From: Naegleria gruberi
Lineage: Eukaryota
Direction: 5' to 3' (one strand)
Length of the DNA: 64,000 nt
Assembly (NCBI GenBank): GCA_000004985.1
Contig: GG738870.1
Shown: positions 1,140 through 39,202 of the stretch, piece after piece
Numbering within the stretch: position 1 is the first letter of the stretch
Layout: every line of letters starts with the position of its first letter
The notes under the pieces: generated by a model
The model's database searches: none
The model's input: only the letters and a program-made list of their open reading frames with translations
What the model was told of the DNA's origin: nothing
Position numbers and translations under genes: made by a program

Positions 1140-1590
1140 AACCCAAACCCAAACCCAAACCCAAACCCAAACCCAAACCCAAACCCAAACCCAAACCGAA
1201 ACCCAAACCCAAACCCAAACCCAAACCCAAACCCAAACCCAAACCCAAACCCAACCCAAACCCAAACCCAAACCCAAACCCAAACCCAAACCCAAACCCA
1301 AACCCAAACCCAAACCCAAACCCAAACCCAAACCCAAACCCAAACCCAAACCCAAACCCAAACCCAACCCAAACCCAAACCCAAACCCAAACCCAAACCC
1401 AAACCCAAACCCAAACCCAAACCCAAACCCAAACCCAAACCCAAACCAACCCAAACCCAAACCCAAACCCAAACCCAAACCCAAACCCAAACCCAAACCC
1501 AAACCCAAACCCAAACCCAAACCCAAACCCAAACCCAAACCCAAACCCAAACCCAAACCCAAACCCAAACCCAAACCCAAACCCAAACCC
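1140..1590. repeat. Second (internal) telomeric array (CCCAAA)n, same orientation as the terminal array
   Basis: A tandem hexamer array begins just after a 50-N gap and ends at ...cccaaacccacgactaagg. Variant units include a CCGAAA. It may be a true interstitial telomeric sequence or an assembly artefact next to the gap. Confidence 0.8.
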
Positions 1591-2010
1591 ACGACTAAGG
1601 TCAGACCCAATATTTTGACTTTTATTCATCTTAATTAATTATCTCAATAAATACTCATTATAAATCAATATATTATATATCAATATACTCCAAATTGAAT
1701 ATATAATCATATTATAACATAATATTACATCATTATAATGACTTATGTAAGTTAATTTCATATAATAGATTAGACAATTAGAATATCAATGAAAACATTT
1801 CAGAATCAATTCAAATCAATATATCATCTTATAAATCATGTTTATAACAATATATATCAATTTCAAATACTTTGGTATCTTTTCAAGAAATTTACTATTC
1901 AACTTGTCAACTGACCTATACTAACATTGAAGATAGAAATATATACCACTTCAATTCACTTCTAATACATCTATACATGATAATTAAATATATATATATG
2001 ATTTAGAAGA

Positions 2011-2280
2011 TCATCCATATCATACATGGTACATGGCTGATCCACTTGATACCTACAGGGATGTGACAATGACATCTACTATACAGATCATCATGAAACT
2101 GGTACAGGACCTTACTAGTGGTGTATAAACACTACTGTATCAGTTTCATGACAATTTGAAATCATTCAACATGCCAGGAGTGTAATCATGAGAATTATGA
2201 ATATCAAGATAATGAAATCATATTAATTTTAAAATCTTTCAATTATAACATCATATATAGATCAATTAATCATGGTATTT
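2011..2280. repeat. Subtelomeric repeat A, copy 2, truncated by a 984-N gap
   Basis: Aligns with 707..977 and runs into the N run at 2281..3264. Confidence 0.8.
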
Positions 2281-3264
2281 NNNNNNNNNNNNNNNNNNNN
2301 NNNNNNNNNNNNNNNNNNNNNNNNNNNNNNNNNNNNNNNNNNNNNNNNNNNNNNNNNNNNNNNNNNNNNNNNNNNNNNNNNNNNNNNNNNNNNNNNNNNN
2401 NNNNNNNNNNNNNNNNNNNNNNNNNNNNNNNNNNNNNNNNNNNNNNNNNNNNNNNNNNNNNNNNNNNNNNNNNNNNNNNNNNNNNNNNNNNNNNNNNNNN
2501 NNNNNNNNNNNNNNNNNNNNNNNNNNNNNNNNNNNNNNNNNNNNNNNNNNNNNNNNNNNNNNNNNNNNNNNNNNNNNNNNNNNNNNNNNNNNNNNNNNNN
2601 NNNNNNNNNNNNNNNNNNNNNNNNNNNNNNNNNNNNNNNNNNNNNNNNNNNNNNNNNNNNNNNNNNNNNNNNNNNNNNNNNNNNNNNNNNNNNNNNNNNN
2701 NNNNNNNNNNNNNNNNNNNNNNNNNNNNNNNNNNNNNNNNNNNNNNNNNNNNNNNNNNNNNNNNNNNNNNNNNNNNNNNNNNNNNNNNNNNNNNNNNNNN
2801 NNNNNNNNNNNNNNNNNNNNNNNNNNNNNNNNNNNNNNNNNNNNNNNNNNNNNNNNNNNNNNNNNNNNNNNNNNNNNNNNNNNNNNNNNNNNNNNNNNNN
2901 NNNNNNNNNNNNNNNNNNNNNNNNNNNNNNNNNNNNNNNNNNNNNNNNNNNNNNNNNNNNNNNNNNNNNNNNNNNNNNNNNNNNNNNNNNNNNNNNNNNN
3001 NNNNNNNNNNNNNNNNNNNNNNNNNNNNNNNNNNNNNNNNNNNNNNNNNNNNNNNNNNNNNNNNNNNNNNNNNNNNNNNNNNNNNNNNNNNNNNNNNNNN
3101 NNNNNNNNNNNNNNNNNNNNNNNNNNNNNNNNNNNNNNNNNNNNNNNNNNNNNNNNNNNNNNNNNNNNNNNNNNNNNNNNNNNNNNNNNNNNNNNNNNNN
3201 NNNNNNNNNNNNNNNNNNNNNNNNNNNNNNNNNNNNNNNNNNNNNNNNNNNNNNNNNNNNNNNN
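2281..3264. other. Assembly gap (N run). Other gaps lie at 1090..1139, 4264..4315, 6017..6066, 10658..10715 and 31802..31851.
   Basis: Runs of n. The poly-X ORFs the track lists across them are artefacts. Confidence 0.99.
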
Positions 3265-3457
3265 AACGTTCTCGTCGCAGAGATAATAGATATACTAGGC
3301 ATTTTTGAGTTGACCATTTTTGATTATCTCAATAACTACGGGGAGTTTTTTCACGTGTATTATAGAATAGATATATTAATGTATTTAATAATACATATAT
3401 AAGAACTGGATAGCCAATATTAGCGGTTCGTTTTATGTGATTAGGTTTTCGCCATAC
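3265..3457. repeat. Subtelomeric repeat B, copy 1 (at least 193 bp; 5' end hidden by the gap)
   Basis: Nearly identical to 7688..7889 (aacgttctcgtcgcagagataatagatatacta...gttttcgccatac). Confidence 0.85.
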
Positions 3458-3472
3458 CCAAACCCAACCCCA
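3457..3472. repeat. Short telomere-like remnant cccaaacccaacccca (about 2.5 units) at the junction of repeat B copy 1 and a 1-kb insertion
   Basis: Direct reading. It is absent from the B2-C2 junction at 7889/7890, where B and C abut. Confidence 0.6.
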
Positions 3473-3474
3473 GA

Positions 3475-4035
3475 ATGCCAAACTTGTTAGAAATCATTAA
3501 GCTATTTCAAAACAAGTTGGAAAGGATACGAAAATCACGAAATGATAATTCTCAATTATCTGTACAAGAAATACATGGGTTGTTTACCAACTTTATTCAT
3601 GGTAAAAGTCTTGCTCATCGTAGAATGACGAAAAGACGTAATCAACTCAAGGTTGGAGGAAGGGACTTGGTTCTTGACACCACCCCTCCCCCAGTGAACC
3701 CTCCAACCAACTACCCAATAGTGAACTCCTTTAACCAATCCAGGTTAAGAAACGAAACTATTGGAATTCATTCCAATATACTAAGTAGAATTACAGAACT
3801 AGGAACAGATCCTAAAAAGAGGAAAGTTCCTGATTCAAATCTGAATTCTAAAGATTCAAAGATCAGTAAAAGGAATGAACCTACTACCTTGAAACGTTCC
3901 CAACAGACTACTCTTCAATTTGGCAAGAAGCCAAAGAAGAATGAACTCAATGAAGGAAGTTCATCGTCAGTTGAAGATGCGAATCTTAACAACGGTCAAG
4001 ATTCGAATCAAGGCAACGTTCACGATTCACAGTAA
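3475..4035 (+). CDS. Hypothetical basic, low-complexity protein (186 aa). ATG sits 2 bp after the telomere-like remnant. No recognisable domain.
   Basis: ORF with ATG at 3475 and TAA stop. Lys/Arg/Ser/Asn-rich. Possibly a subtelomeric orphan gene or a spurious ORF. Confidence 0.3.
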   Translation: MPNLLEIIKLFQNKLERIRKSRNDNSQLSVQEIHGLFTNFIHGKSLAHRRMTKRRNQLKVGGRDLVLDTTPPPVNPPTNYPIVNSFNQSRLRNETIGIHSNILSRITELGTDPKKRKVPDSNLNSKDSKISKRNEPTTLKRSQQTTLQFGKKPKKNELNEGSSSSVEDANLNNGQDSNQGNVHDSQ

Positions 4036-4431
4036 TAAGGTCAAGTGAACTTCCACTTGACTCTATTACAGTAGAGCGAGATTAGTATAAATACTAAGCT
4101 AGCTCAATATATTTTTCAATAAAAATTACAAACACAGCCCTAGATTGGCTCGCAAGTTTTCTGGTTTTTATTGTTTTTTCAAAGGGAATAGTTCAAACTC
4201 ATCATCATCATCTTTCTGAACAAGATATTCATCAGTGGAGCCTTCGGGACCCATAACAACAAANCNNNNNNNNNNNNNNNNNNNNNNNNNNNNNNNNNNN
4301 NNNNNNNNNNNNNNNTTTCACTGAAATTGATTTCATGACATGTAGACACTCTAATTAGTATATGGTATCAATTTCATGAATATTGGTTCAGCAGATGTCG
4401 ACTTGTCAACTCTATCACAATACTATAGACA

Positions 4432-6016
4432 TTTGATATAAAATCAAAGATTATGCTCCAACTCGCTCATTTTATATGAAATTAGTCTGGAACTGATAAC
4501 ACACATTCTATACATCAATTTAATACATCTATATATGTTTAGAAACAATTCGTGATACTTTCATTCAGCTAATCGGAACATGTTCAATGTCATAAGTGAA
4601 TATATTCAAGTGTACACTCTATCTCAGTGAAAGTACATCCAATCATTCTGTAACTTTACCAAATACCTTTAATCACACTATTATACATCTGATATCAATT
4701 TTATAGTGTTAGAATTGAATTCAATATGATAATAATAACAATCTGTCAAATTGTCAGAGTTCAACATATAGAATGTAAACCATCTCAGTCATTTTACAAA
4801 ATATCACACTAGTGTCAAATATGAATACACTTCCCTTCATGAGGAGAACAATATGAGAAAGTTTCACATTGATGGCTCAGTATCTTCAAGTCAACTAAGG
4901 AACATCTAAGGTAATCAATAGGGAAGAATCTTATTTCCAAAATTAAATTTTACCATCATATCAAAATCATTGAATAATGAATTATTTATAATATTCAATT
5001 ATTATATTCATGTCAGTAATCAGTGAAGGTGACACTTCTTCAACCTTAGTATACACATCTCAATATCTAGACTGTCAATTCCACTGAACCTTGAAATACT
5101 ACCTATTTAGATGATGGTATGACGACTCTCCATAGTACCATATATGTGAAATTGAATATTGACACTTTTCATCTAGCTATGTTTATAGAGATGGTATCCA
5201 GCAGAGTCAGTTCATAATATCAAATATTGAAATTAGTTCTTTATGGCATATGCGATGTCTAGAAGTGTTTTTGATTATACCAATCTAGTTTAAAGCACTT
5301 TGGCGGAGTTGACACTGTTTAGTTACAAATACATGACATTTGAACCATAGTTTACATTCCATCTCAGTCATTTCAACGATTTATTGATTAATTCCACCAC
5401 CATTATGTTTCTCATACATTGTAGTACAGTTTATATTTCAAGAGTGATTTCTGTGTAGATTATTATAAATCGTAATACTATTCAATACCATTAAAACTCA
5501 ATAGAAGTCAATTCTTCTCATTTTCAAATAGATTATTCAATATAGAAACACATCTAGATAGTTTCCATATCATAAAAGTCAAGCTACTATATATGGTCTT
5601 TGATTAAATTTAAAAATAGACTGCCGTTGATTACTGGAATATTAATTCAAAGCTTGATGATCAAGTTATTGATTGAAAATCAAACCGATTATTGAATATT
5701 GATTATTGAATTGGTGAATAATCAATATTGATAATGTTACTTATTCATATTGCAAATCAACCAGATTCAATCTACAAAGGTTGGTAGTTGCACCACTACG
5801 TGGCGAAACTACCATTCCACGATCAATCAACATAAGAATCACTTCCATTCAACTCAATTTGACCGTTATAATCAATAAATCAATGAAATGTTCCTTTATT
5901 AGCAATACCTATTCAATCTAATCAGTAGATTCACGTCCCANACATTTGACTTCTAAAAGTCCATAATTCAAAAGTTAGTACTGACCTGACCTTTAAATAT
6001 CTATCAATACAAGAAA
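4432..6016. repeat. Subtelomeric repeat C, copy 1 (about 1.6 kb, non-coding, ends at a gap)
   Basis: About 88-90% identical by eye to 7890..9486 (ctatagacatttgatataaaatcaaagattatgctcc ... ctttaaatatctatcaatacaagaaa). No ORF over 70 codons. Confidence 0.8.
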
Positions 6017-7687
6017 NNNNNNNNNNNNNNNNNNNNNNNNNNNNNNNNNNNNNNNNNNNNNNNNNNTCAATTTTGAAAAACTAAGAGTAGCTATATATAA
6101 TATCTAATAAATCATATTTAAATATCAAAACTGATATCAAAATGCTTCAAATAACATATATAACATGATACAATTGAAATAAATATCATATCTCATATTA
6201 AATATTGAGATAGTCAATTAAGGTACCTCAATAGCGAAGTACCCTAAGGACAATGAGATTCATTACCAAATTGATACAACATGTTATTAACCTCATATAA
6301 TGAGGTTCCTATCAATTTCATATCATTTGGACATCATTCAATATTCATGTCATTCAACCATGTCAGCAACTACTCATGGCAATATGACAAGTCAATATCA
6401 AGAGTTGAAACAAGATAGTATATCATACCACTACTCTTATAAATGATATTTATAACGTTTCTGAGTGGTAGAAATCAATATCTATATAATTGGAATATCT
6501 GTCAAGCTACTGTCCTAATTGACCAAAGGTAACATTCTTACATGTCATGAATGGTAAGAATCACTTCCAATTCATTACTATCATGTTATAATCATCAAAT
6601 ACTACCATAATATCAGTTATGGAATGATTTCAATATCATCTTAGATAGTTGTCATATGACAAAGTTACTACCTTAGTGAACTACCCATGTCATTAAGAAA
6701 TATCAAAGTTGAAAAATTTCAATTATATATTCATATTTACATCAAATAGAGTCTATAATATCAGTTTCATAACATATAATCAATAATTGGTGTTATGGCA
6801 ATAATTCTATTGAGATTAGACATTGCAACATTTCCCAAATTGGAAATATAGAATATTAAATCATGAAACCAATTATCTGTCGATAAAATGCATAGATAAA
6901 CGATATTATCAAATAAAATATATAGGTCCCTATTGAAAGTGTTTACCTGGTAAAAAGTGAGCGTAATTTCCCCTACTTTCATCCTAATTGGTTATCTCCC
7001 TATATATATGATAAATTTCAATTATTTCAATTGAATATCATAAATCATGATAATTAGACATGTATCAATGAGTGGAATTAAGTCATGTAAGATATTCATC
7101 CTTCAATAACCAATATTGTCAATTTCACACAAGTTGACTTCCTACAGTCTGAATATTGATCCAATAATGATTATTTCAATTATATATGATTATATTTGAC
7201 ATTTACTACAATATCTATGAGTTAATATAAATGGGAGAGTATTTCCATAGTATGGCTCAATATCTTGGTCAATTAAGGTAGAATGATTACAGTATACTAA
7301 GGATATCATATATTATACTTCAAACACTTCTAAAAGGTAGATATTATCATAATGCATCATATATATGAGATTGGTGATGATTCTAATAACATTCATATAA
7401 TAGTACAATAAATGTTGAAAAGTTAATTTTTAGACATGTTGTAGTTTATTTAATATACCGATTCAACAAGTTTAATTGATAATGTCATCTATTCATATAT
7501 ATATCTACAATATATCAAAAGTTTCATTCTGGCCCAACTTTGAAATTTTCAACTTTGTCAGACCCAAGGGAGGTTCAACCCATGGGGTCACTTTAGGACT
7601 CAATTATCTCGGGAACGGCGAATTAAAAAAATTAGTATTTTCTATCATTTCTTCCATAACTCGTATAGATTGATATTTGAGTGAATC

Positions 7688-7889
7688 ATAATCCGGAACG
7701 TTCTCGTCGCAGAGATAATAGATATACTAAGAATTTTTGAGTTGACCATTTTTGATTATCTCAATAACTACGGGGAGTTTTTTCACGTGTATTACAGAAT
7801 AGATATATTAATGTATTTAATAATACATATATAAGAACTGGATAGCCAATATTAGCCGTTCGTTTTATGTGATTAGGTTTTCGCCATAC
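7688..7889. repeat. Subtelomeric repeat B, copy 2
   Basis: Matches 3265..3457. Followed directly by repeat C copy 2. Confidence 0.85.
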
Positions 7890-9486
7890 TATAGAACTTT
7901 GACATAAAATCAAAGATTATGCTCCAAATCACTTATTTTATATGTAATTAGTCTAGAATTGATAACACACATTCTATACGCCATGTATATACATCTATAC
8001 AAGTTTAAAAACAATTCATAATACTTTAATTCAGTCAATCAGTAAATGTTCAATGTCAACAGTATATATATCCAAGTGTACGCTCTATCTCAGCGAAAGT
8101 ACATCCAACCATCATGTAACTTTACCAGATACATTTAATCACACTATTATACATATGGTATCAATTACATACTGTTAGAACTGAATTCAGTAGGATAATA
8201 ATAACAATCTGTCAAATTGTCACATTTCAACATATAGATTGTATACCATCTCAGTCAATTTACAAAATATCATACAAGTGTCAAACATGAATACACTTCC
8301 CTTGATGAGGACAACAATCTGAGAAAGTTTCATGTTGATGGCTCAATATCTTCAAGTCAACAAAGGAACATCTAAGGTTGTCAATAGGGAAGAATCATAT
8401 TTCCAAAATTAAATTTTACCATCATATCACAATCATTGAACAATGAATTATTGATACAAGAATCATATGTTCAATTGTTATATTCATGTCACTAATCAGT
8501 GAAGGTGACACTTCTTAAACCTTAGAATACACATCTCAATATGTAGACAGTCAATTCCACCGAAACTTGAAATGCTATCTGTCTAGATGATACAATGATG
8601 ACACTCCATATGTGTAATTGAATGTTGACACTTTTCATCTTGTTATATTTATAGGGATGGTATCCAACAGAGTCAGTTCACAATATTAAATATTGAAACT
8701 CATTCCATAGGACAGGTTTGATGTATAGAACGGTTTATTATTGAATGTATCAGTTTGATATAATTTGATGAAATTGACACTGTCAAGTCACCATTACATG
8801 ACAAATAGACCATAGTTTACATTCCATCTCAGTCATTTCAACGAGTCGTTGAATAATTCTACCACCATTATGTTTCGCATACATTATAGTACAGTTTATA
8901 TTTCAAGAGTGATTTCTGTGTAGATTATTATAATCGTAATACCATGCAATACCAATAAAACTCAATAGAAGAGTTAATTCTTCTCATTTACAAATAGATT
9001 ATTCAATATAGAACACATCTAGATAGTTTCCAGATCATAAAAGTCAAGATACTATATATGGTCTTTGATTAAATTTAAAAATAGACTGCCGTTAATTACT
9101 GGAATATTAATTCAAAGCTTGTTGATCAAGCTATTGATTGAAATCAAACCGATTATTGAATATTGAATATTGAATTGGTGAATAATCACTCTTGATAATG
9201 TTACTTATTCATATTGCATGCAAATCAACCAGATTCAATCTACAAAGGTTGGTAGTTGCACCACTTCGTGGCGAAACTACCCATCCACGATCAATCAACA
9301 TGTGATTCACTTCCATTCAACTCAATTTGACCGTTATATTCAATAAATCAATGAAATGTTCCTTTATTAGCAATACATATTCAATCTAACGAGTAGATTC
9401 ACGTCCCAAACATTTGAATTTTCTCAAAGTCCATAATTCAAAAGTTAGTACTGACCGGACCTTTAAATATCTATCAATATAAGAAA
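7890..9486. repeat. Subtelomeric repeat C, copy 2
   Basis: Collinear with 4432..6016, including the conserved hairpin ggtagttgcaccac(t/a)(a/t)cgtggcgaaactacc. Confidence 0.8.
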
Positions 9487-10032
9487 TGAAAACATCAAAT
9501 TTACATCATTAATAGATGATAAGAATTATAATCAATGATATGAATCTTCACTAAGTAATCTCTTAAATAACCCAAATAAATCAACTCTGAATCCTAACCA
9601 AACCCAATAAAATGAGGAGAGATTCATGCTATGATTAATTGGAAGAGCCACATAGATTTTGGGTACTATCTGAACTGAAATGAGGTAGAAAGAGTACAAT
9701 CTTCAAGAGCAAACAATTTAGGTCCTATTTATGTTGGATTTCTGATGGTTAGGTTCTCCCGGGCAATCCTAAAGTCACCTCACACAATAAAGTAGATGAT
9801 AATATTTCTATTTTGAGGTTGTTCATTTATTTTTTTTGCCAATTAAATATTTTCTAGCTCTCTAATTTCAATCGTTGCCTTCCCCATAACTACTTTACAA
9901 TTTACAAAGATTCAAACACCTGCCCACAAACAAACCATGTAGATTCCTAAAATCAAGTCATTTTTGAAAAATTCATTTAAATTACAGATTTATTTTTACA
10001 GAGCTCGACAGTTGACTATACAAAGTGCCAAT

Positions 10033-10985
10033 TTAGAAACACTTTCTGTGAACGATACCTGGACCGGCATCCTCATATTCTTCCTTTGTGATCCACATCT
10101 GCTGAAAGGTCGAAAGGCTCGCTAAGATGGAACCACCAATCCAGACAGAGTATTTTCTTTCTGGTGGAGCAACAACCTTAATCTTCATAGAGGCTGGAGC
10201 CATAGCAGTCAATTCCTTGGTCATTCTTTCAGCAATACCTTCGAACATGGTAGTACCACCAGACAAGACAACGTTACCGTACAAGTCCTTTCTGATATCA
10301 ATATCACATTTACCAATTGAATTGAAAGTAGTTTCATGAACACCAGCAGCTTCCATACCAATGAAGTTAGGTTGGAACAAGACTTCTGGACATCTGAATC
10401 TTTCATTACCAACAGTAATGACATTACCGTCTGGCAATTCGTATGACTTTTCAACTGATGATGATTCAGCAGCAACCTTCATTTCAGCTTCAAAGTCCAA
10501 AGCAATATAACAGAGCTTTTCCTTAATATCTCTGACAATTTCTCTTTCAGCAGTAGTATTGAATGAGTAACCTCTTTCCATCAAAATCTTCATCAAATAA
10601 TCAGTCAAGTCACGACCAGCCAAATCCAATCTCAAAATAGCGTGTGGCAAAGCATAANNNNNNNNNNNNNNNNNNNNNNNNNNNNNNNNNNNNNNNNNNN
10701 NNNNNNNNNNNNNNNGGTGATGCCAGATCTTTTCATATCATCCCAATTGGTAACAATACCGTGTTCAATTGGATACTTCAAAGTCAAGATACCTCTCTTT
10801 GATTGAGCTTCATCACCAACATAGGCATCCTTGTTACCCATACCAACCATAATTGATTTTTGCTTTGGTCTACCAATAATTGAAGGGAAGACAGCTCTTG
10901 GAGCATCATCACCAGCAAAACCAGCTTTACACATACCAGAACCGTTGTCAACAACGAGGGCTTGAACGTCTTCACAGAAGGACAT
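10033..10985 (-). CDS. Actin (conventional, highly conserved). The CDS is interrupted by a 58-N assembly gap that hides about 60 codons and breaks the frame.
   Basis: N-terminal part [41 protein letters not shown]...[16 protein letters not shown] (ATG at 10983..10985). C-terminal part [20 protein letters not shown]...[37 protein letters not shown]...IVHRKCF, with stop TAA at 10033. The C-terminal track ORF actually starts at a TTG; the real frame continues into the gap. Confidence 0.95.
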
Positions 10986-29366: not shown

Positions 29367-29465
29367 CATTATTTCTCAATAAATATATATTGAAGAAATA
29401 ATAAATTGTAATTTTATTATAGTCTCTTTTATCATAACGACCTTAGAGACTAGCTGTTCAACCAT

Positions 29466-32337
29466 CTAGTTCTGTTCAGTGTTTGGACGAGTTTGGTTCG
29501 GGCTAAGTGGTTGGGACAGCTGTTGCCTTTGGTAAGCAGAAGTGTATTTTTTGTTTTTGATGAAGGAGTCGGTGGGACGATTGTACCATGATGAATTTTT
29601 GTAGCAGTTACTAACATATACTGCGAGAGCTTTGTAGATATCTAGGGCCACAGCCTTGGGGAGTCGTTTGTGATTGGCCCAAATGGACCAATTATGCTTT
29701 GTGCATCGACCGTCATATTCAATGTTAAGGCAATTTGGAATGGAAGATTCAGGTGGGAAACGGATCTTGCTTAGGTTGTATTTATGAGAGATATCGTCCC
29801 AAGTGGCATATAGTTCTTGCTTTTCAGGTAAGCATTTTGGACAGGATTGGAAGACATGGGTCCAGGTTTCTTCCTTGTGACATATGTCACATTCACTATT
29901 AATGCCTAGATATATGGCATGGTGTAGGTTGTAAAATAGTAGACGTTGTTGGTAGTACGAGAGTTGGTGGTTTCTCCAAAGAGACAACACACAGTGGTGC
30001 CAGTTGAACTCGTTGTCAAGTTGGCCCATTATTGTTATTTCTTTTTTTTTACGTTCATTGTTTAGAACGAGTTGTCTGATGTTTTGGACAGGTTTGTGAC
30101 TATTGCGGTGGCACAACACCCATCCACTTTCGGTGGATTTGAAGTATAAATTCAATTCTTTCATAGTAATACTAGTTTGTTTCCATAAAGAATCTGTTGC
30201 ATCATTGTTGGGTTGTTTCATCATGTTTCTAGCTATATTTCTGGTTAAGGGAGATGTAGAATTAACAAATCTGCATACAGCTGCCATTCTCTCAACGCTA
30301 GAGATGTCTACAGGAGACATCAGCCCCATTCCTCCTTGCTGTACATCACCATAGATGATAGCCTTGGATAGTTTGAGGTTGCATCCTATTTTGGATTTAA
30401 TTGTTACACTAATTTTAGTTTCTAAACTCTGTAAAGTGGATTGAGAGACAGCATCTACACTGGAGAGGTATCTGGGTACGGAAAGTACCTTTGATAACAA
30501 TACAGTTCTAACTGTATTGAGTCTGAGATGTCTGGGTCTGAAATTATTAAGTCGGGAGTTAATCTTATCTATCAATTTATCTTGAGAGGGCGACCATTTC
30601 AGGTTATTAAGAAGTCTGGAACCAAGATATTCGAGGGTATCTTTAGGGTTGTTGATATTGACGTTATTAAGGAATACTTTGGCGGTAGACTTTTTACCAG
30701 ATGCAGTGACACCAAATACTTTGCATTTATGAGTAGCAAAGTGCATGCCTAATTGGTTGGCAGTTGAGTTGAGTTTGTGGAGGATGTTTGTCATTTCGTT
30801 GGATGATTCTGAAAGGACAATGATGTCATCTGCATACAACAACATTACAATTTTGTCTCCTAATAGAGAGACTCCTTTAAAGCCATCAACGATACTCGTG
30901 ATGGCATTGAAATAAATATTGAACACAAGTGGACTCAATGGGTCTCCTTGTGGGACTCCAAAAGTAGCATCAAACGCCGGTGATGTGGAACCATTAGCAA
31001 ACACTTTCACAGAATGTTCACTAATCATATTCATGATTAAATCGCATACTGATTGATTGAAACCTTGATATTTCAAGATTTCTTTCAGTTTGCTATGGAC
31101 AACGCTGCCATATGCATTTTTAATATCAAGGGTGCACATAAATAAAGGTTTCTTTTTGTGCCTGTAGTTGGCAACGACTGATTTCACTATCACGAGCTGG
31201 TCTGTCGTGGATGCTAGTCTTCTGAAGCCTCTTTGGGCTGGATGAATTAAATTATCCTTTTCCACCCTTTCCATGAGGTGGTAATTGACGTACGAAGAAA
31301 AAATTCTGTAAATAATTGGTAGAACTACTATAGGTCTAAAATCTGATAGACGTTTAGGGCAATTGGTTTTAGGTAAGGGAAGTAATAACCCCTCTTTCCA
31401 AGAGGACGGAATGGGATTTCCATCCACAAGGATCTTGTTGAAAGCTTGGCAGACTATGTCTAATGCCTCATCATTCATGCTCTTAAATACCAACATTGGG
31501 ATTTTGTCCCATCCGGGCATTGTATGTTTCATCTTTCCAATAATATTGGAGAGAGAACTTACACAGGCAGGTGGGATTTTGAACCCATTAAGGGAATCTA
31601 TGGATTGATAGTTTTGTAGGTTTAGTTTGGTAGATCCTAGATCAGTATTGAACATTTTGTTGAAATGTTCAAACACATTATCTGGGACGGATTCAACATC
31701 AAACACTGAACTTGAGTTCCTTTCTTTTTTAAATGCATATCTATAGGGAGTGTTGAGTTTGAGGTTGTTAACTGCAATTTTGAATGCTTCTTTTCTTTGT
31801 TNNNNNNNNNNNNNNNNNNNNNNNNNNNNNNNNNNNNNNNNNNNNNNNNNNCCCAAAATACAAATTAATATTGAGATCTCCAAGTATGAAAATGTGCTCC
31901 GAGTGAAACATGCATTCTGTAACTAGATCTGTAACTTTTGAAAGGATCTTGTGAAATTCACTTGAGACTCGGTGGACACCATACCAGTTGATTATATTGA
32001 TGATACCATCACTTGTTTCCAATTTTAGGCATGTCAATCTGCCTTGATAGAGTTCTTCAAATGATAGTACCTTTCTTTGAAGAGTACCTTTGATAATCGT
32101 AATGACACCGGCTGCTTTATCATCCTTATTACAGTGTGATCCAAATATGGAGCACGGTTGAAAGAATTTGGCAGCTTTTGAAACTTGATCCTTGAATTCA
32201 TTGTGTGACCAATGAGTTTCTTGGACATTCACTACATTAAGTCCTTCTCTATTAATGTGTTGGAGTAGAATGGCTTGTTTGTCTAGAGAGAAGGACGACA
32301 GATTACAAGAGGCCATTCTAATGCGAGGGGAGACCAT
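29466..32337 (-). CDS. LINE ORF2 protein (APE endonuclease, RT, zinc knuckle; about 960 aa, split in the track by the 31802..31851 gap)
   Basis: See the mobile_element entry. The frames of the two track ORFs differ only because of the arbitrary gap length. Confidence 0.8.
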
Positions 32338-33800
32338 TATTGTTGGTCGGAAGCTCCGTTCATATCCGTATCATCGTCGGATAGAGTGAGAGCTTCTTTG
32401 CCTTGTTTTCTTTGTTTTCTAGGCTTGTGACTTGAGCCAGAAGGTAAAAAGGTTTGCACATCTGTTGACAATTCAGTCAACTTATCGTCTAATGCACCAA
32501 TCATAGTATAAGTATTTTCATAGTCCGTATCTAGTTCGGCAAGCATTTCTTGTACTTGAGTATTCCTTTTGTTGCTATCTTCACTGAGTGTATTAATTTT
32601 AGTTTCAGTGGTAGTGAAGGAGGATTGCAACTGACTGAGTTGGATTTGGAGGGAAGTAATTTCATCCAAAAGACCGTCAATTTTAGCAACTTTAACTTTC
32701 ATTTCATTATTTTCTTTAGAGTGGTTGCTAAGAGTAACTGATTTGTCCAAGACGTTCTTATCGAGGTTAGTGTAGTGGGTTCTAATATTATTAATACTAG
32801 TATTGAGTTCCTTAAAATCATTTGTGTGTATAGTATTGATATTTGTAATGGATTTTTCTAACTCATCATTCTTAGTCTTCAGAGCCTGATTTTCTTTGAC
32901 TAATGAATCAACCCGAGATTGCAGCTCAGTGTATGCACTGGCAAGAACAAATCTGGTAGGATCTACGAGGGAAGCTTCTGAGATGGCGTGTTGAACCAAC
33001 TCCTTCACTTTGGTGATGAGGGAAGGTTTGTTGAGTCTAGGATTGAAGGAGAGATTTGTGACAACGACATCTCCAACGTAGATAATTTTGGTGAGTGTGC
33101 TTTTTTTCAGCTCTTCACGTTTGACTTTAACATAAGCGGTGTTGTTGTTAATGTCAAGTTCAGGATTAAGTTTCCACGCACTAATAATGACCTTTTTGAG
33201 TGCATCGATTTGTAGTTTTCTATCCGAATCCCAAGTGAGACGTAGAGTAGTGGTACTGACGTCTATTTCAGATAGAAAGTTGGGTTTATTATCTAATAGA
33301 TTTTCAACATTAACAGCCCAGAAATTATTCGAAGGGGAATAATTCATGCTAACAACTGACTTCACCTCACCGATCACCTTTTTAAGGTTTGGAATATTGA
33401 ATGGAAGGTCTACCTTATAGCGATACAGAGTGGAGACTCTTTGAAGAAACATAAATGAGTCTGTACCTTTCCACTCCTTAACAGCATTAAGTGCCATTTC
33501 ATGGCTCACAAAGTAAGCAAAGGCTACTCCTTTGAGGCCCAATGGAATGTGAACACCATTAACCCAACTCAGGTTAATGTTGTAGTGTTCTAAAATTTGT
33601 TGCTGGCTGCTGTTATCAGGATGACCCGCAAGAAGGACCCTGAATCTACGCTTATAAGATGGGAAGATGTGGCGTACCTGTCTACCATCTTTAGCTTCTG
33701 CTTTGGATGTGGCAGGTGTGTTGGCCTTCCTTGCTGATGTGTTGTTGTTGCTTGGAGACTGGTCAAGTTTTCCTCCGGGAGTCGGAGGAGTTTTGCCCAT
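32337..33800 (-). CDS. LINE ORF1 protein (about 487 aa from the first ATG): RRM-like domain followed by a long coiled-coil region
   Basis: The track ORF starts at a TTG (33857). The first ATG is at 33798..33800 (MGKTPPTPGG...). RNP1-like KGVAFAYF. Heptad-rich C-terminal half (LVKENQALKTKNDELEKSITNINT...). Confidence 0.7.
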   Translation of the reverse strand: MGKTPPTPGGKLDQSPSNNNTSARKANTPATSKAEAKDGRQVRHIFPSYKRRFRVLLAGHPDNSSQQQILEHYNINLSWVNGVHIPLGLKGVAFAYFVSHEMALNAVKEWKGTDSFMFLQRVSTLYRYKVDLPFNIPNLKKVIGEVKSVVSMNYSPSNNFWAVNVENLLDNKPNFLSEIDVSTTTLRLTWDSDRKLQIDALKKVIISAWKLNPELDINNNTAYVKVKREELKKSTLTKIIYVGDVVVTNLSFNPRLNKPSLITKVKELVQHAISEASLVDPTRFVLASAYTELQSRVDSLVKENQALKTKNDELEKSITNINTIHTNDFKELNTSINNIRTHYTNLDKNVLDKSVTLSNHSKENNEMKVKVAKIDGLLDEITSLQIQLSQLQSSFTTTETKINTLSEDSNKRNTQVQEMLAELDTDYENTYTMIGALDDKLTELSTDVQTFLPSGSSHKPRKQRKQGKEALTLSDDDTDMNGASDQQ

Positions 33801-33945
33801 TTTTTTTGAACCCCATATATATTGAAGAAAACCCAATCTCAATATCTTTTGACTCAAATTCTTCCCTCAAACTACTGTAAGGACATTAAATTTCCAAAAT
33901 AGTATTAAAAAACGCCAATTTTTCAAGTTCATTTAAGGCACGCTA

Positions 33946-35055: not shown

Positions 35056-35554
35056 TGAATGTCATTTCAGAATTTACATTAAAATAATTACAATTAAATG
35101 TTCAAGATAGAAATTTGAAGTCTCTTCGAAACTATTAGGTTAATAATTTATTCATTCCATTTATTTAGAGTGTGAAATATAAGGAATATCCTTTAACTAT
35201 TAAGGAACTTTGAACGGATGTGTATATTAATAAACAGTGCAGCCCCTACCAATTTCTGACCTTCCTCCTTCACTACTGGGTGTATAATCTTAACACAATT
35301 AAATTAGCACATGTCCACCTTGTTAAGGCAGGCACATTTTGTATTACTGGGGATTTATGTTAGGCAAAATCGCCTTATCAGAATGGAAGGAACCTATTTT
35401 GTCTCCTCCTTGGTCTTCTAGAACCACTAAAACACTAGACACAGCACCAGATCGCGTTTCATCAACAACTTCAAATCGTTGTTTAACATCCATGGAACCT
35501 TCTCTCAACAACCACACGAAAAAAAAACAGATGATTCTTCATCGTCATCATTCC

Positions 35555-38500
35555 ATGAAAAACCTCTGCGCATTGCCACTGCTACTAATATTATGCTTTC
35601 AAACAGTATTGCTATTCTTCCATTCATCATGCATTCAGCCAGTCAGAGGTGAAACATGTTTTGGAATTGCATCGAGCAGTTCAAAAACTTGTTCTGGAAG
35701 AGGTGTTTGCACACCAGATAATTTGTGCACATGTAATGTGGATTCATCATTGGGTTCTTCCTCTCCCTATTCTGGATTGAACTGTGAAGTAGATTTGTGT
35801 TTTCCTAATGCAATTATTTCTTATAATTGCAATGGAAATGGACAGTGTGAAAATGGTGTTTGTAAATGTAAGGAGGGAACTTCTGGATTCATGTGCCATT
35901 TGAATAGTACCAAATTGATGTGTTTTGGTGTGAGTGGAGGTGATTCAAGAGTTTGTTCTGGTCATGGAAAATGTTTGGACACGAACGTGTGCTCATGCCA
36001 AGATGGTTATACAGGAACTGAATGTCAAATTCCACTATGTTATGGTATTCCATCAACTTTGACATCAAGCGTTTGCTCTGGTAAAGGTACATGCAAGGGA
36101 CAAGATACATGCGAATGTCAATCAGGTTTTTCTGGAGCTAATTGTGAAGTACTTGGTTCAGTATCTTCGCAAGGCTCATCTATTGCAATTCCAGCATCAT
36201 TTTGTGGATCAATAATTGATAGTGATAACAGAACATGTAATGGAAGAGGAAAATGTATTGCCAATGACACATGTCTATGTATGGAAGGTTACAATGACCA
36301 TGACATGTGTCAGAGTACATTCTGCTTTTCAATTCCACAATATGATGCACTGGTTTGCAGTGGACATGGCAACTGCATCGATTACAATACATGTAATTGT
36401 ACTTCTTCTGGAAATTCTTCATTGAACTTTATTGGAAATGAATGTGAAATAGTTCAATGTTTAGGAAGAAATTTCCATTTTTACAATAGCACAGATTCAA
36501 ATGTTTGCAATGGAAATGGTTTCTGTTCCTCTACCAATGATGGTTGCATTTGTAAGGATGGTTATTACGGAGATGCATGTGAACAATTTTCCTGTTTTGG
36601 TATTTCATCAACAAGTGAAATTTCTTGTTCTGGAAATGGACAATGTTTAGATATTGACACTTGCTCATGCTACTCAAATTTACAACAAGGTTATTGGAGT
36701 GGAGAAAATTGTGATATCTGTGATGAAAATTACTCTGGAACGCATTGTAACGAAACAGTAACTTGTCAATCTGAAACTTTTTGTAATCTTTTAGGATCTT
36801 GCTTTAACAATACATGTCAATGTGAAGAACAATACTCGGGACCATCCTGTAGTTTGTGTCAGGGTGGTTTCTATGGTCCATTCTGTAACCATAGCTGTTC
36901 CAGAGTGGACACATGTCATGGACATGGAGAATGTTCAAGAGATGGAATTTTCTGTGAATGTGATCAATCTAATGAGGATGGTTATTGGGATGATTTGTCA
37001 ATGTGTCAAAAATGTAAGAATGGATATTTTGGATCAAGCTGTTTATTGAGAATCGGTGAAAGTTTCGGTTTAAATTCATTGGGAAATGAAATTGTAATTC
37101 CATTAGTGATTCGTCCAAATAATTTGCAGAATTTACTGAATTGCTCTTTGATATTGGTTTTGGAAAGTAGAAGAATGCTTGGATCCTTCCCTGAATGCTG
37201 GATTGATTCGAATAATATGTTGAGAATTACCATTCCAAAAGATTCGACATTTTCTCCAATTCTTAATTCTGATAGAATTGTTATAATTCCAAGTGGTTTT
37301 GAAAATGGTATTCAGAAAAACGAAACCATTTCCCTTCCTTTTGATTCTATCAATACGAAACTTGTCCTTCCAGTTGCCAAAATCTATTCGAATTCAACTT
37401 ATATTCTTCCAAATAGTGATTTAACTTTAATTGGTTCAAATTTACTAAGAATTGAAAGAGAAAGAAATCTGACATTTGAATGGTCTTTGAAGAGTAGTGA
37501 TTCTGATTTTGCCTTATTTCAATCGAATTTGAATTCAAGAATTTCGAGTGGAAAATTTGGTCAACTGACAATTACAAAATCTGACATTCCATCAACTGTT
37601 ACTACATTCCAGATCCAATTGATTGTTAGAAATCAAATTAATAATATTTCCAGTAATCCTACTCATATGACATTCACTGTATTGAAATCTACAACTTTAC
37701 AACAAGTTTACAATGGAGCTTACAATTTGAAATTCAATTTACCAACTCAAATTCTTTATGTACATAATGACATGTTACCATACAAGTTAAAATACTCTCT
37801 ATTACAAGATAATTCACCTATTTCACTTCCAAACTCTAGTTATTCCATTCAATTTTCAATTAGTCCAACACCTTCGGATAACACTTTCGTTACTTTACAG
37901 AATTCGAATGGTATTTTAACAATTTCCTCAGCGTATAACTATGACAATCAGAATAATGTTTATGAAGGATTCGATGGTCAAGTGTTTAACTCTTCCAAGT
38001 TTTATCAAATTATTGGAACTGTCACTCATGTGCCAAGTGGAAAAATTGTCACTCAAAAATCAATCAAATCATTCTTTATTAACAGAAATAGTGGAGCGAG
38101 ACCTGATTTTGATACTGGTAGTCTAAATCCTCTTCCAACACAAGCAGGTCCCGCAGCCATAACCATCCTAACCAATGGACACACTTTTGATTCAGTTGAC
38201 TGGGATTGTTTCGAATGGTCTGGAGTTGGTGGAAAGTGCAGTAATGAATGGATGGCAGCAATTGCAGCATCCAAAGATTCCAACATCCTAAACGTTCCAC
38301 TCGACACTTTTTTCCTTGCTAAGAATCCTCTTTACGTCAGAGCTAAGGTTGTGATTGCTGGCATTCCCTATTATCTCCAAAGCTCAGTAACCCCATCTCA
38401 GGGATTTGGTTTCAAGACTTTGAATGGAGCAACTTTGTACAGTATCATTGCTGGAATGCAGTTGGCCAAAATTGATCGAACCAATTCTCACACAGCTGTC

Positions 38501-39202
38501 TATTCTTGGATGGATTACCAATTTAAGGATACTGTGAATGGAGCCACACTTACTTATGAAGTTAGAGATCAAGATAATAACTTATTAACGCCAACATCGT
38601 CATATATTACACTGGATACTAATCAGAGAAAGTTTACAATTTCTGGTTCAAATATTCCAACAAGTGTTAAAGTATTGAAAATCTCAGTTCGTTTTACAGT
38701 TCCTAATTTTACCAATTTTAAATATAGAGCTTATCTTTATTTGGTTCCAGATGCAATTACCCAACCTAGTCCAACATCAGTGTTGAATTATACTGTTTTG
38801 GAAAATGGATTGAGAAAGTATACGTTAAATTATCAATTGACCAAAACATATGTTGCTGCCATGTCATCCATTTCATTAAAAATTGGAAGTCATAAGATTA
38901 GTATTGCCAATGTCGGTCCAAGTCAACTTGTGAAATTTATACTTCCACCCCTCTTGGATGCCAGCTCAATAATTGCTGATGTGACATATGTCGATAATAG
39001 ATATGTCGGTGGTGCTAGCTCCATTACACAACAATTCACATTACATTCTCTACCTGCCGAAAGTCAATCATCTGATTCTTTTATTCGTTCCATGCAAGAA
39101 TCCATTCGAACAGATGCCACAACTTATTTAGGTACTAATTTTGTAATGTTAATAATGAATATTAGATATTTGGGTGAGGAATATGATTTCCCTACCATGT
39201 AA
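35555..39202 (+). CDS. Secreted or surface EGF/tenascin-repeat protein (about 1215 aa from the signal-peptide Met). About 15 Cys-rich EGF-like modules plus a large Cys-poor C-terminal domain.
   Basis: The track ORF starts at a TTG (35339). Signal peptide MKNLCALPLLLILCFQTVLLFFHSSC begins at the ATG at 35555..35557 (an alternative ATG lies at 35531). Repeated CSGRGVC..C.C..G..G..C modules are like those of the 11200..17703 receptor. No kinase, and no clear TM. Confidence 0.75.
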   Translation: MKNLCALPLLLILCFQTVLLFFHSSCIQPVRGETCFGIASSSSKTCSGRGVCTPDNLCTCNVDSSLGSSSPYSGLNCEVDLCFPNAIISYNCNGNGQCENGVCKCKEGTSGFMCHLNSTKLMCFGVSGGDSRVCSGHGKCLDTNVCSCQDGYTGTECQIPLCYGIPSTLTSSVCSGKGTCKGQDTCECQSGFSGANCEVLGSVSSQGSSIAIPASFCGSIIDSDNRTCNGRGKCIANDTCLCMEGYNDHDMCQSTFCFSIPQYDALVCSGHGNCIDYNTCNCTSSGNSSLNFIGNECEIVQCLGRNFHFYNSTDSNVCNGNGFCSSTNDGCICKDGYYGDACEQFSCFGISSTSEISCSGNGQCLDIDTCSCYSNLQQGYWSGENCDICDENYSGTHCNETVTCQSETFCNLLGSCFNNTCQCEEQYSGPSCSLCQGGFYGPFCNHSCSRVDTCHGHGECSRDGIFCECDQSNEDGYWDDLSMCQKCKNGYFGSSCLLRIGESFGLNSLGNEIVIPLVIRPNNLQNLLNCSLILVLESRRMLGSFPECWIDSNNMLRITIPKDSTFSPILNSDRIVIIPSGFENGIQKNETISLPFDSINTKLVLPVAKIYSNSTYILPNSDLTLIGSNLLRIERERNLTFEWSLKSSDSDFALFQSNLNSRISSGKFGQLTITKSDIPSTVTTFQIQLIVRNQINNISSNPTHMTFTVLKSTTLQQVYNGAYNLKFNLPTQILYVHNDMLPYKLKYSLLQDNSPISLPNSSYSIQFSISPTPSDNTFVTLQNSNGILTISSAYNYDNQNNVYEGFDGQVFNSSKFYQIIGTVTHVPSGKIVTQKSIKSFFINRNSGARPDFDTGSLNPLPTQAGPAAITILTNGHTFDSVDWDCFEWSGVGGKCSNEWMAAIAASKDSNILNVPLDTFFLAKNPLYVRAKVVIAGIPYYLQSSVTPSQGFGFKTLNGATLYSIIAGMQLAKIDRTNSHTAVYSWMDYQFKDTVNGATLTYEVRDQDNNLLTPTSSYITLDTNQRKFTISGSNIPTSVKVLKISVRFTVPNFTNFKYRAYLYLVPDAITQPSPTSVLNYTVLENGLRKYTLNYQLTKTYVAAMSSISLKIGSHKISIANVGPSQLVKFILPPLLDASSIIADVTYVDNRYVGGASSITQQFTLHSLPAESQSSDSFIRSMQESIRTDATTYLGTNFVMLIMNIRYLGEEYDFPTM

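What the first reader, a model, noticed from the sequence alone, without database searches (positions are those of the whole stretch)
29400..33900. Apparently intact, potentially active LINE wedged between two host genes
Both ORFs are complete. ORF1 has an RRM plus a coiled coil. ORF2 has APE, RT and a CCHC knuckle, and is interrupted only by an assembly gap. The two ORFs are joined by the classic overlapping TAATG. The element starts within about 90-150 bp of the ATG of the divergent SDR gene and ends within about 100 bp of the stop of the F-box paralog. Such a tight insertion in a gene-dense genome argues for recent activity. An RRM-type ORF1 suggests an L1/Tx1- or Tad-like clade.
Basis: partly seen in the sequence, partly recalled or inferred. 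Interest (0 to 1): 0.55.

Follow-up and report, generated by a model that had tools for sequence, protein, structure and literature searches.

The report
Young full-length LINE in Naegleria gruberi
This is a genuine, recently inserted LINE retrotransposon in the amoeba Naegleria gruberi, from a Naegleria-specific family that still looks mobile (also in N. fowleri), but an assembly gap and a small deletion mean this copy cannot be called intact.

Summary
The LINE is real and sits on the minus strand. A perfect 16-bp target-site duplication (TTTCTTCAATATATAT) fixes its ends at 33814 and 29399. The window is N. gruberi: ORF1 equals XP_002676789. ORF2 has the N-terminal two-thirds of an APE nuclease, an RT (Pfam 1e-33) and a C-x2-C-x7-H-x4-C knuckle.

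"Both ORFs complete" cannot be shown. The 50-N gap replaces about 598 nt (about 200 codons). That length would join the two reading frames in frame. ORF1 also lacks 26 N-terminal codons that a near-identical copy has.

Recent mobility is supported. A metagenome contig carries a copy with 5 mismatches in about 1.93 kb and a different 5' flank. Three N. fowleri relatives are about 99.8% identical to each other, each with a perfect 18-22-bp duplication starting ATTTTT.

Family traits are a conserved 14-nt 5' leader (GGGGTTCAAAAAAA), no poly(A) tail, and an ORF1 with an RRM-like fold followed by a coiled coil. The L1/Tx1/Tad guess is not supported: no poly(A), no RNase H, and the RT scores higher against R2 than against L1. 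The family is an isolated lineage whose clade is unresolved.

Verdict: a new member of a known kind, of moderate interest.

The parts
33815..33830 (-). 5' target-site duplication, TTTCTTCAATATATAT
   Evidence: It is a perfect 16-bp direct repeat with 29383-29398. In 2000 shuffles of the two flanks the longest shared word never exceeded 13.
29399..33814 (-). The LINE proper. 4416 bp as assembled (50 of them N), about 4.96 kb if the gap holds about 598 nt
   Evidence: TSDs abut both ends. Homology to L075, L001 and L074 begins exactly at GGG(G)TTCAAAAAAAATGG. Homology to L076 ends about 3 nt before 29399. There are no internal long repeats, LTRs or TIRs: the self-BLAST gives only the identity match.
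33801..33814 (-). 14-nt 5' leader GGGGTTCAAAAAAA, directly before the ORF1 ATG
   Evidence: The leader is identical in L001 and L074, whose ORF1 is only 35% and 55% identical. L075 has one G fewer. N. fowleri has GGGTCTTCGAAAAA. The A-run before the ATG matches the host start-codon context, seen at 9 of 18 long ORFs in the window.
32337..33800 (-). ORF1, 487 aa plus stop. Equals N. gruberi XP_002676789.1 (NAEGRDRAFT_67931)
   Evidence: It is homologous to ORF1 of the N. fowleri and L004 elements. Only 19 representatives out of 1.84 billion match its N-terminal profile.
33791..33792 (-). Site of a 78-bp (26-codon) in-frame deletion relative to the 99.7%-identical copy L075. The missing peptide is QPRGKKANKPSSNQQLSTPAKQQPLL
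   Evidence: The relatives P0122 and P0123 also carry a basic N-terminal stretch here.
33435..33647 (-). RRM-like domain of ORF1 (aa 52-122)
   Evidence: AlphaFold gives beta-alpha-beta-beta-alpha-beta with pLDDT 60-83. The top Foldseek PDB hits are all RRMs (E 7e-3, probability 1.0). phmmer hits to hnRNP H qRRMs are weak (E about 1). Pfam gives no hit.
32451..32942 (-). C-terminal coiled coil of ORF1 (aa 287-450)
   Evidence: The model shows long helices. Many sub-threshold Pfam hits are to coiled-coil families.
32335..32339 (-). TAATG: the ORF1 stop overlaps the first in-frame ORF2 ATG
   Evidence: The same overlap is present in N. fowleri. L001, L074 and L076 instead have TAG followed by a 14-20-nt spacer.
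32314..32316 (-). Second in-frame ATG (MASCNLSS...), the ORF2 start that is conserved in relatives
   Evidence: P0002, P0003 and the L076 ORF2 all begin MASCNLSSFS.
31852..32337 (-). ORF2 N-terminal part: the first two-thirds of the APE endonuclease (162 aa)
   Evidence: Pfam Exo_endo_phos is below threshold (0.003). The motifs SCNLSS, VQETHW, INWYG and GDLNIN are present. The family APE profile hits L1 endonuclease structures at 7e-11. The full APE of N. fowleri passes the Pfam cut-off.
31802..31851 (.). Assembly gap of 50 N, standing in for about 598 nt of ORF2
   Evidence: The flanks map to L076 positions 1660 and 2259, so 598 nt lie between them. 598 = 3k+1, which is exactly what is needed to join the two frames. 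Filling the gap with the L076 sequence gives one 1139-codon ORF.
29466..31801 (-). ORF2 C-terminal part (777 aa plus stop): RT, thumb/C-terminal domain and zinc knuckle
   Evidence: RVT_1 at 1.1e-33 covers aa 148-394 (30618-31358). The motifs FRPIVVLP, TLDIKNAYGSV, GVPQGDPLSP, LLYADDIIVL, HKCKVFG and LEYLGSRL are all present. There is no internal stop.
29841..29891 (-). CCHC knuckle CDICHKEETWTHVFQSC
   Evidence: The Cys and His columns are conserved across the family.
29399..29465 (-). 67-nt 3' UTR ending ...ACAATTTATTA, with no poly(A) and no microsatellite. It contains the hairpin AGTCTCT(17 nt)AGAGACT at 29421-29451
   Evidence: The fold has z = -2.2. The stem GTCTCT/AGAGAC is conserved in L076 but is absent in N. 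fowleri.
29383..29398 (-). 3' target-site duplication, TTTCTTCAATATATAT

Best explanation
This is a full-length copy, with both ends intact, of an APE-type non-LTR retrotransposon (LINE) that belongs to a Naegleria-specific family.

It inserted by target-primed reverse transcription into the 147-bp spacer between the stop of an upstream host gene and the SDR gene. It is antisense to both genes. The insertion duplicated 16 bp of T-rich target.

Inferred mechanism:
1. A short-leader bicistronic RNA is made, starting at or near the conserved GGGGTTCAAAAAAA.
2. ORF1 gives an RNA-binding protein that multimerises through its coiled coil and has an RRM-like fold.
3. ORF2 is translated by termination-reinitiation at the TAATG overlap or at the ATG 21 nt downstream.
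4. The APE domain of ORF2 nicks the target strand complementary to the element just before a T-rich stretch as read on the element strand (TTTCTT here, ATTTTT in N. fowleri).
5. The RT primes on that nick and copies the RNA from a specific 3' UTR that has no poly(A).
6. A second nick 16-22 bp away produces the duplication.

The insertion is shown to be recent. It is not shown whether this copy is still autonomous, because about 200 codons of ORF2 are unassembled and ORF1 lacks 26 N-terminal codons.
For: - TSD and ends.
- Domains.
- Host identity.
- A second copy lies at another site, with 5 mismatches in about 1.93 kb (4 synonymous, 1 non-synonymous).
- Three N. fowleri copies are 99.75-99.79% identical, with perfect 18-, 20- and 22-bp TSDs that all start ATTTTT.
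- The frames on the two sides of the gap are compatible with a 598-nt fill.
- No poly(A) tail or tandem repeat is present.
- ORF1 is homologous across the family.
Against: - The part of ORF2 hidden in the gap could carry stops or a deletion. The gap is written as 50 N, and a truly short gap would mean an internal deletion of about 550 bp.
- ORF1 has a 78-bp deletion relative to L075.
- No other copy of this subfamily is annotated in N. gruberi.
- The 14-nt leader leaves no obvious room for an internal promoter.
- Every step after the DNA anatomy (transcription, reinitiation, nick specificity, 3' UTR recognition) is inferred, not shown.
- The 3' hairpin is not conserved in N. fowleri.
Confidence: 0.85

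Rival explanations
1. The copy is a dead relic. The gap hides an internal deletion or stop codons, and together with the ORF1 N-terminal deletion the element can no longer move, or can move only in trans.
For: - The gap is only 50 N, while other gaps in the window are given sizes of 58 and 984 N, so the true gap might be short.
- ORF1 has a 78-bp deletion relative to L075.
- This subfamily is a singleton among annotated N. gruberi proteins.
- The near-identical L075 copy is itself broken by a 31-bp deletion.
Against: - The two flanks of the gap are in exactly the phase expected for an intact 598-nt segment.
- No stop or frameshift occurs in the 939 visible ORF2 codons or in ORF1.
- The ORF1 deletion is in frame and lies in a disordered, low-complexity region (pLDDT below 35).
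- The TSD is perfect.
Confidence: 0.35
2. Promoter capture: the family has no promoter of its own. Its nuclease prefers C|ATTTTT, which is the reverse complement of the Naegleria start context AAAAAATG. New copies therefore land head-to-head with host gene starts and are transcribed from bidirectional host promoters.
For: - The leader is only 14 nt.
- The N. fowleri copy L078 sits exactly on the synaptobrevin ATG, inside a spacer of about 57 bp between two divergent genes.
- The window copy faces the SDR gene divergently, 115 bp from its ATG.
- In L003 the element's ORF1 ATG is 44 bp from a divergent host ATG.
- All three N. fowleri TSDs start ATTTTT.
Against: - The L077 and L079 targets are not at real gene starts.
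- The window TSD is not at an ATG.
- In such a compact genome any intergenic insertion is close to a gene start.
- The strict conservation of the leader also fits an initiator or internal promoter of the element's own.
- Only 5 insertion sites have been examined.
Confidence: 0.15
3. The ORFs are domesticated host genes (ORF1 is annotated as an ordinary predicted protein) rather than a mobile element.
For: ORF1 is annotated in N. gruberi and is apparently single-copy.
Against: - A TSD flanks the unit.
- A near-identical copy lies at another site.
- The copies in N. fowleri are multicopy and near-identical, each with its own TSD.
- N. fowleri has no orthologous locus; its elements sit at unrelated sites.
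Confidence: 0.03

Closest known systems
Human/mammalian LINE-1 (L1 clade)
   Same: - Two ORFs.
- ORF2 is collinear with L1 ORF2p over APE, linker and RT (profile positions 5-857 against residues 9-870).
- The APE profile's best solved relative is the L1 endonuclease (7e-11).
- There is a C-terminal CCHC knuckle.
- ORF1 combines an RRM-type fold with a coiled coil.
- TSDs are variable, 16-22 bp.
- Extra 5' G residues are present.
   Different: - No poly(A) tail.
- The leader is 14 nt instead of a 5' UTR promoter of about 900 nt.
- The coiled coil is C-terminal to the RRM-like domain rather than N-terminal.
- The RT scores about half as well against L1 as against R2.
- The target is T-rich at the start of the TSD, where L1 has an A-rich one.
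- No supported grouping with plant L1-type (zf-RVT) RTs was found.
R2 (RLE-type, rDNA-specific LINE)
   Same: The RT, including its N-terminal extension and thumb, is the best solved match (183 bits, 5.8e-53). There is a CCHC knuckle after the RT, no poly(A), and probably recognition of a specific 3' UTR.
   Different: - R2 has a C-terminal restriction-like endonuclease, N-terminal zinc-finger/Myb domains, a single ORF and one fixed 28S target.
- This element has an N-terminal APE, two ORFs and many different targets.
- No PD-(D/E)xK motif is conserved after the knuckle.
Stringent-type LINEs without poly(A) (CR1/L2 group; comparison from general knowledge)
   Same: No poly(A), a short 3' UTR with a hairpin, and APE plus RT.
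   Different: Those elements end in short microsatellite-like repeats, and many have esterase-type or other ORF1 proteins. Here there is no terminal repeat, and the hairpin is not conserved in N. fowleri.
Protist LINEs of compact genomes: Dictyostelium TRE5/TRE3, trypanosome ingi/L1Tc (general knowledge)
   Same: They persist at low copy number in gene-dense genomes by inserting into short intergenic regions. L1Tc has a very short functional 5' end.
   Different: - There is no tRNA-gene association in the window or in N. fowleri.
- There is no RNase H or C2H2 finger as in ingi/L1Tc.
- No trypanosomatid protein appeared among the listed homologues (the best 120, all 33).

Membership tests
Non-LTR retrotransposon (APE-type LINE) | LINE-type reverse transcriptase with the catalytic YADD motif and motifs A-E | tested here: met
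   RVT_1 at 1.1e-33. All motifs are present. The best solved relatives are R2 and L1 ORF2p.
Non-LTR retrotransposon (APE-type LINE) | N-terminal apurinic/apyrimidinic-like endonuclease | tested here: met
   Two-thirds of the domain is visible with the N, E, Y and D/N motifs. The family profile hits L1-EN at 7e-11. The C-terminal third is hidden in the gap.
Non-LTR retrotransposon (APE-type LINE) | Flanking target-site duplications, with no LTRs or TIRs | tested here: met
   Perfect 16-bp TSD. Perfect 18-22-bp TSDs in three N. fowleri copies. No internal long repeat.
Non-LTR retrotransposon (APE-type LINE) | Several copies at different sites, some of them 5'-truncated | tested here: met
   L075 lies at a different site. 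N. fowleri has three or more loci. L003 keeps only the coiled-coil part of ORF1.
L1 clade | The RT groups with L1 in a phylogeny | tested here: inconclusive
   In the neighbour-joining tree the family is monophyletic (200/200) with no supported sister (111/200 or less). It is equidistant from zf-RVT (plant L1-type), RNase H-bearing and PF14529-bearing RTs. The RT scores R2 183 bits against L1 about 92 bits. No clade-labelled reference set could be obtained.
L1 clade | 3' poly(A) tail | tested here: not met
   The element ends ...ACAATTTATTA directly before the TSD. The same holds in N. fowleri and L076.
L1 clade | ORF1p built as N-terminal coiled coil, then RRM, then CTD | tested here: not met
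   The order here is disordered basic N-terminus, RRM-like domain (52-122), a further beta-rich region, then a C-terminal coiled coil (287-450).
Tx1 clade | Site-specific insertion into a particular repeat or gene family | tested here: not met
   Five insertion sites are unrelated apart from a T-rich start.
Tad1 / I / ingi-type clades | RNase H domain downstream of the RT | tested here: not met
   Pfam finds no RNase H in the window ORF2 or in the full-length relatives P0004, P0005 and P0008.
R2 group | C-terminal restriction-like endonuclease, no APE, and a single rDNA target | tested here: not met
   An APE is present at the N-terminus. No PD-(D/E)xK motif is conserved after the CCHC knuckle. 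Several non-rDNA targets are used.
RRM-type ORF1p (Khazina and Weichenrieder classes; from general knowledge) | An RRM fold in ORF1 | tested here: inconclusive
   The models have low confidence (mean pLDDT 51), with a locally confident beta-alpha-beta-beta-alpha-beta fold. The Foldseek top hits are RRMs, but none reaches E <= 1e-3. Pfam gives no hit.

The most novel reading that the evidence does not exclude
The Naegleria LINEs form a previously unclassified, deep-branching APE-LINE clade with an R2-like RT, an L1-like APE and a rare ORF1 type. They have given up an internal 5' UTR promoter. Their nuclease target (C|ATTTTT) mirrors the host start-codon context AAAAAATG. New copies are therefore placed head-to-head with host genes and borrow bidirectional promoters, which is how the family persists at very low copy number in genomes with about 0.3% transposable elements.
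Probability: 0.12. Interest if true: 0.7.

Novelty: new member of a known kind. Interest (0 to 1): 0.4.

Why it matters
Naegleria genomes are reported to hold only 0.13-0.28% transposable elements (bioRxiv 10.64898/2026.06.24.734286). I found no paper in the held library that describes this family.

A LINE with defined ends and evidence of very recent movement could be useful in three ways:
- It is a candidate natural insertional mutagen or vector backbone for organisms that are hard to transform. The evidence for recent movement is copies about 99.7-99.8% identical, with perfect duplications, in N. gruberi-like strains and in the pathogen N. fowleri.
- It is a source of polymorphic markers for strain typing.
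- Its R2-like RT combined with an L1-like APE, and its 14-nt conserved leader, are useful data points for how APE-LINEs arose and how a LINE can be transcribed with almost no 5' UTR.

Tried and rejected
1. tRNA-gene targeting, as in Dictyostelium TREs. There is no tRNA and no Rfam hit in the window. Among the relatives, only L004 has one tRNA-Gln nearby.
2. A second copy inside the window. None was found.
3. Exact-protein look-ups of the window ORF1, the SDR protein and P0003. None is on record.
4. Scans of metagenome contigs. The scan with the ORF2 alignment found no relative. The scan with the 18-nt leader gave 69 matches, and none of those contigs encodes a relative.
5. A clade-labelled RT reference set from the supplements of PMC10294476. 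The table and trees are held, but the alignment file is cut and lacks the references, so this was a dead end.
6. Ranking of PDB scores as a clade test. Calibration with P0066 (zf-RVT type) and P0014 (PF14529 type) showed that R2 and L1 score about equally for both, so the ranking alone does not discriminate.
7. A Biopython bootstrap run timed out. It was redone with numpy.
8. A conserved 3' UTR structure. Hairpins are seen in the window, L076 and L003 but not in N. fowleri, and there is no covariation, so this remains an inference only.
9. TSDs for L003 and L001. Nothing above chance was found.
10. The AFDB fold library was not available.


Full report
**What is in the window.** On the minus strand there is an ORF of 487 codons, from ATG 33800 to TAA 32339-32337. 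It is followed by a second reading frame whose first ATG (32337-32335) overlaps that stop as TAATG. The second frame runs 162 codons to 31852. There it meets a run of 50 N (31802-31851). It resumes in another phase as a 777-codon open frame ending at TAG 29468-29466. GC content is about 38-42% inside the element and about 27-33% in the flanks.

**Host.** The ORF1 product is 100% identical over its whole length to the N. gruberi predicted protein EFC44045.1/XP_002676789.1 (NAEGRDRAFT_67931), on a 418-kb scaffold. The window is therefore N. gruberi NEG-M.

**Domains of ORF2.**
- Pfam finds RVT_1 at 1.1e-33 in the C-terminal part. In the N-terminal part it finds only a sub-threshold Exo_endo_phos match.
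- Full-length relatives of 1117-1158 aa exist in N. fowleri, in an unidentified NCBI assembly (GCA_050043615.1), in a Logan assembly and in metagenomes. They align along the whole ORF2.
- The APE of the N. fowleri relative passes the Pfam threshold.
- A profile of the family APE hits human L1 endonuclease structures at 7e-11.
- The visible APE part keeps the N, E, Y and D..N motifs. All RT motifs, including YADD, are intact. A C-x2-C-x7-H-x4-C knuckle lies at 29841-29891.
- No RNase H is detected.

**Domains of ORF1.** There is no Pfam domain, only weak matches to coiled-coil families. AlphaFold models are poor overall (mean pLDDT about 51). Even so, residues 52-122 form a beta-alpha-beta-beta-alpha-beta unit at pLDDT 60-83, and residues 287-450 form long helices. 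Foldseek against the PDB returns RRMs as the top hits (E 7e-3, probability 1.0, TM about 0.6 on the target), but none is below 1e-3. The RRM is therefore plausible but not established.

**The gap.** Aligning the flanks of the gap to the 75%-identical element L076 puts them at L076 positions 1660 and 2259. That means 598 nt are missing. 598 equals 3k+1, which is exactly what is needed to bring the two window frames into phase. Filling the gap with the L076 segment gives a single ORF of 1139 codons. The hidden part would encode the last third of the APE (the RPDH and final His motifs) and the linker. This is compatible with an intact ORF2 but does not prove it. If the 50 N stand for a truly short gap, the copy carries a deletion of about 550 bp.

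**The ends.** The 16-mer TTTCTTCAATATATAT occurs on the element strand at 33830-33815 and again at 29398-29383. In 2000 shuffles of the two flanks the longest shared word never exceeded 13. Among 1440 real-sequence control pairs taken from the window, 6 reached 16. Three independent lines confirm these boundaries:
- Homology to the near-identical copy L075, and to the distant copies L001 and L074, starts exactly at GGG(G)TTCAAAAAAAATGG, and everything upstream is unrelated.
- Homology to L076 ends within about 3 nt of 29399.
- The N. fowleri relatives have the same architecture, with their own TSDs.

The element is therefore 29399-33814. It has a 14-nt leader and a 67-nt 3' UTR, with no poly(A) tail and no terminal microsatellite. 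Before the insertion, the stop of the upstream host gene (29366) and the SDR ATG (33946) were 147 bp apart.

**Age and copy number.**
- L075 comes from an environmental metagenome (ERZ929261). It differs from the window copy by 5 substitutions in about 1.93 kb (4 synonymous and 1 non-synonymous, all in ORF1). It also differs by one 5' G, by 78 bp that L075 has and the window lacks, and by 31 bp that the window has and L075 lacks. Its 5' flank is different, so it lies at another site.
- The window's ORF1 therefore lacks 26 N-terminal codons (QPRGKKANKPSSNQQLSTPAKQQPLL). More distant relatives also carry a basic stretch at this position.
- In the annotated N. gruberi proteome this subfamily appears only once. 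Two other, divergent subfamilies (55-60% identity) are present on other scaffolds: P0003 (NAEGRDRAFT_68513) and P0125. P0125 is 97-99% identical to the ORF1 and ORF2 of L001.
- In N. fowleri three copies are 99.75-99.79% identical. Each has a perfect TSD of 18, 20 or 22 bp. Further fragments lie on other contigs and in N. lovaniensis.
- The family is therefore recently active in the genus.

**Target sites.** All three N. fowleri TSDs begin ATTTTT. The window TSD begins TTTCTT, and the downstream flank of L076 begins TTTAC. One N. fowleri copy (L078) sits exactly on the start codon of a synaptobrevin gene, inside a spacer of about 57 bp between two divergent genes. The other two are not at real gene starts. 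Host genes in the window often have AAAAAA directly before the ATG (9 of 18 long ORFs). The element's leader ends the same way.

**ORF1-ORF2 junction.** TAATG is found in the window copy, in L075 and in N. fowleri. L001, L074 and L076 instead have TAG followed by a 14-20-nt spacer, and they start ORF2 at MASCNL. The window has that same ATG at 32316-32314. What is conserved is close coupling of the two ORFs, not the overlap itself.

**Classification.**
- Among solved structures, the RT of the window copy and of N. fowleri score higher against R2 proteins than against L1 ORF2p. With a family profile the scores are 183 bits for R2 and 129 bits for full-length L1 ORF2p, of which about 92 bits come from the L1 fragment that lacks the endonuclease (8c8j).
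- The APE is most like L1-EN and does not hit the R1/TRAS endonucleases.
- Calibration shows that this PDB ranking is not a reliable clade test.
- In a neighbour-joining tree of 48 RT cores the Naegleria sequences are monophyletic (200/200). They have no supported sister group and lie about 2 substitutions per site from every other group.
- A clade-labelled reference set could not be obtained.
- The ORF1 N-terminal profile finds only 19 representatives among 1.84 billion.
- I conclude that this is an isolated lineage of unresolved clade. Membership of L1, Tx1 or Tad1 is not supported: there is no poly(A), the ORF1 domain order is reversed, there is no site specificity, and there is no RNase H.

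**Mechanism.**
- Shown: the DNA anatomy, the TSDs, the conserved termini and near-identical copies at different sites.
- Inferred from established LINE biology: target-primed reverse transcription started by an APE nick before the T-rich start of the TSD; a second nick 16-22 bp away; coupled translation of ORF2; and recognition of a specific 3' UTR, given the absence of poly(A). A hairpin at 29421-29451 is shared with L076 but not with N. fowleri.
- Open: how an RNA with a 14-nt leader is transcribed. The leader's strict conservation across copies whose ORF1 is only 35% identical argues for a function. That function could be an initiator or internal promoter, or a requirement at the 5' end. 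Use of host bidirectional promoters is a less likely alternative.

**Literature.** The held library has no description of this family. Recent surveys report 0.13-0.28% transposable elements in Naegleria genomes and note that only a small fraction of N. gruberi repeats can be classified (PMC12344493). Whether Repbase already holds a consensus for the family could not be checked.

**Verdict.** This is a real, young, end-to-end LINE insertion. The word "intact" is unproven, and the clade guess is not supported. It is a new member of a known kind, of moderate interest.

Noticed in passing
L077 6966-11761, L078 6967-11765, L079 6966-11767 (N. fowleri GCA_008403515.1): Three copies of the N. fowleri relative are 99.75-99.79% identical. 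Each has a perfect TSD of 18, 20 or 22 bp, and all three TSDs begin ATTTTT. This points to very recent activity in the pathogen and to a defined nick-site preference.
   Followed up: partly
L078 about 7877-7900, and the same position in L077 and L079: ORF1 of all three N. fowleri copies changes frame (0 to -1) near ATT AAA AAG ATC AAA TTA CC. The downstream frame is the one homologous to N. gruberi ORF1 (NLSF..R motif, coiled coil), and it ends in TAATG at the ORF2 start. This could be programmed frameshifting, a tolerated mutation in the master copy, or a systematic homopolymer error in the assembly.
   Followed up: partly
L077 6935-6965: Directly upstream of the 5' TSD of this N. fowleri copy lies a degraded 3' end of an older copy (AATAAACCCATCCCTGA, compared with AATAAACCCATTCCTGT). 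This suggests repeated use of the same target site.
   Followed up: no
L075 about 2175-2410: About 66 nt after the point where the window's gap begins, the metagenome contig L075 stops being homologous. It then encodes a signal-peptide-like stretch (LVVLLLALVGCGN...). The contig is probably a chimeric assembly. It is curious that both assemblies break in the same region.
   Followed up: no
L004 5006-5078 and about 4730-4810: The distant relative from a Logan assembly has a tRNA-Gln gene, and a second tRNA-like sequence, within about 500 bp downstream of its ORF2. No tRNA association is seen in the Naegleria copies.
   Followed up: no
   Followed up: partly
window 33946 and about 33985 (+): The first ATG of the SDR ORF has a poor context. 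A second in-frame ATG 13 codons downstream is preceded by AAAAAAA, like most host genes here, and may be the real start. If so, the element's 5' end is about 170 bp from the SDR start, not 132 bp.
   Followed up: no
window 1090-10715: There are seven further assembly gaps (1, 50, 58 and 984 N) in the first 11 kb of the window, so that region is poorly assembled.
   Followed up: no
window 35339-39202 (+): A 1287-codon ORF is rich in EGF-like cysteine repeats (CxxxGxCxxxxxCxC). It is probably a large secreted or surface protein, and it lies immediately downstream of the SDR gene.
   Followed up: no
N. gruberi proteins P0003 (NAEGRDRAFT_68513) and P0125, on other scaffolds: The gene models of two other LINE subfamilies in N. 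gruberi are artefactual. P0003 skips the RT core. P0125 fuses the C-terminal part of ORF1 to the N-terminal part of ORF2. Both are annotated only as 'predicted protein'.
   Followed up: partly
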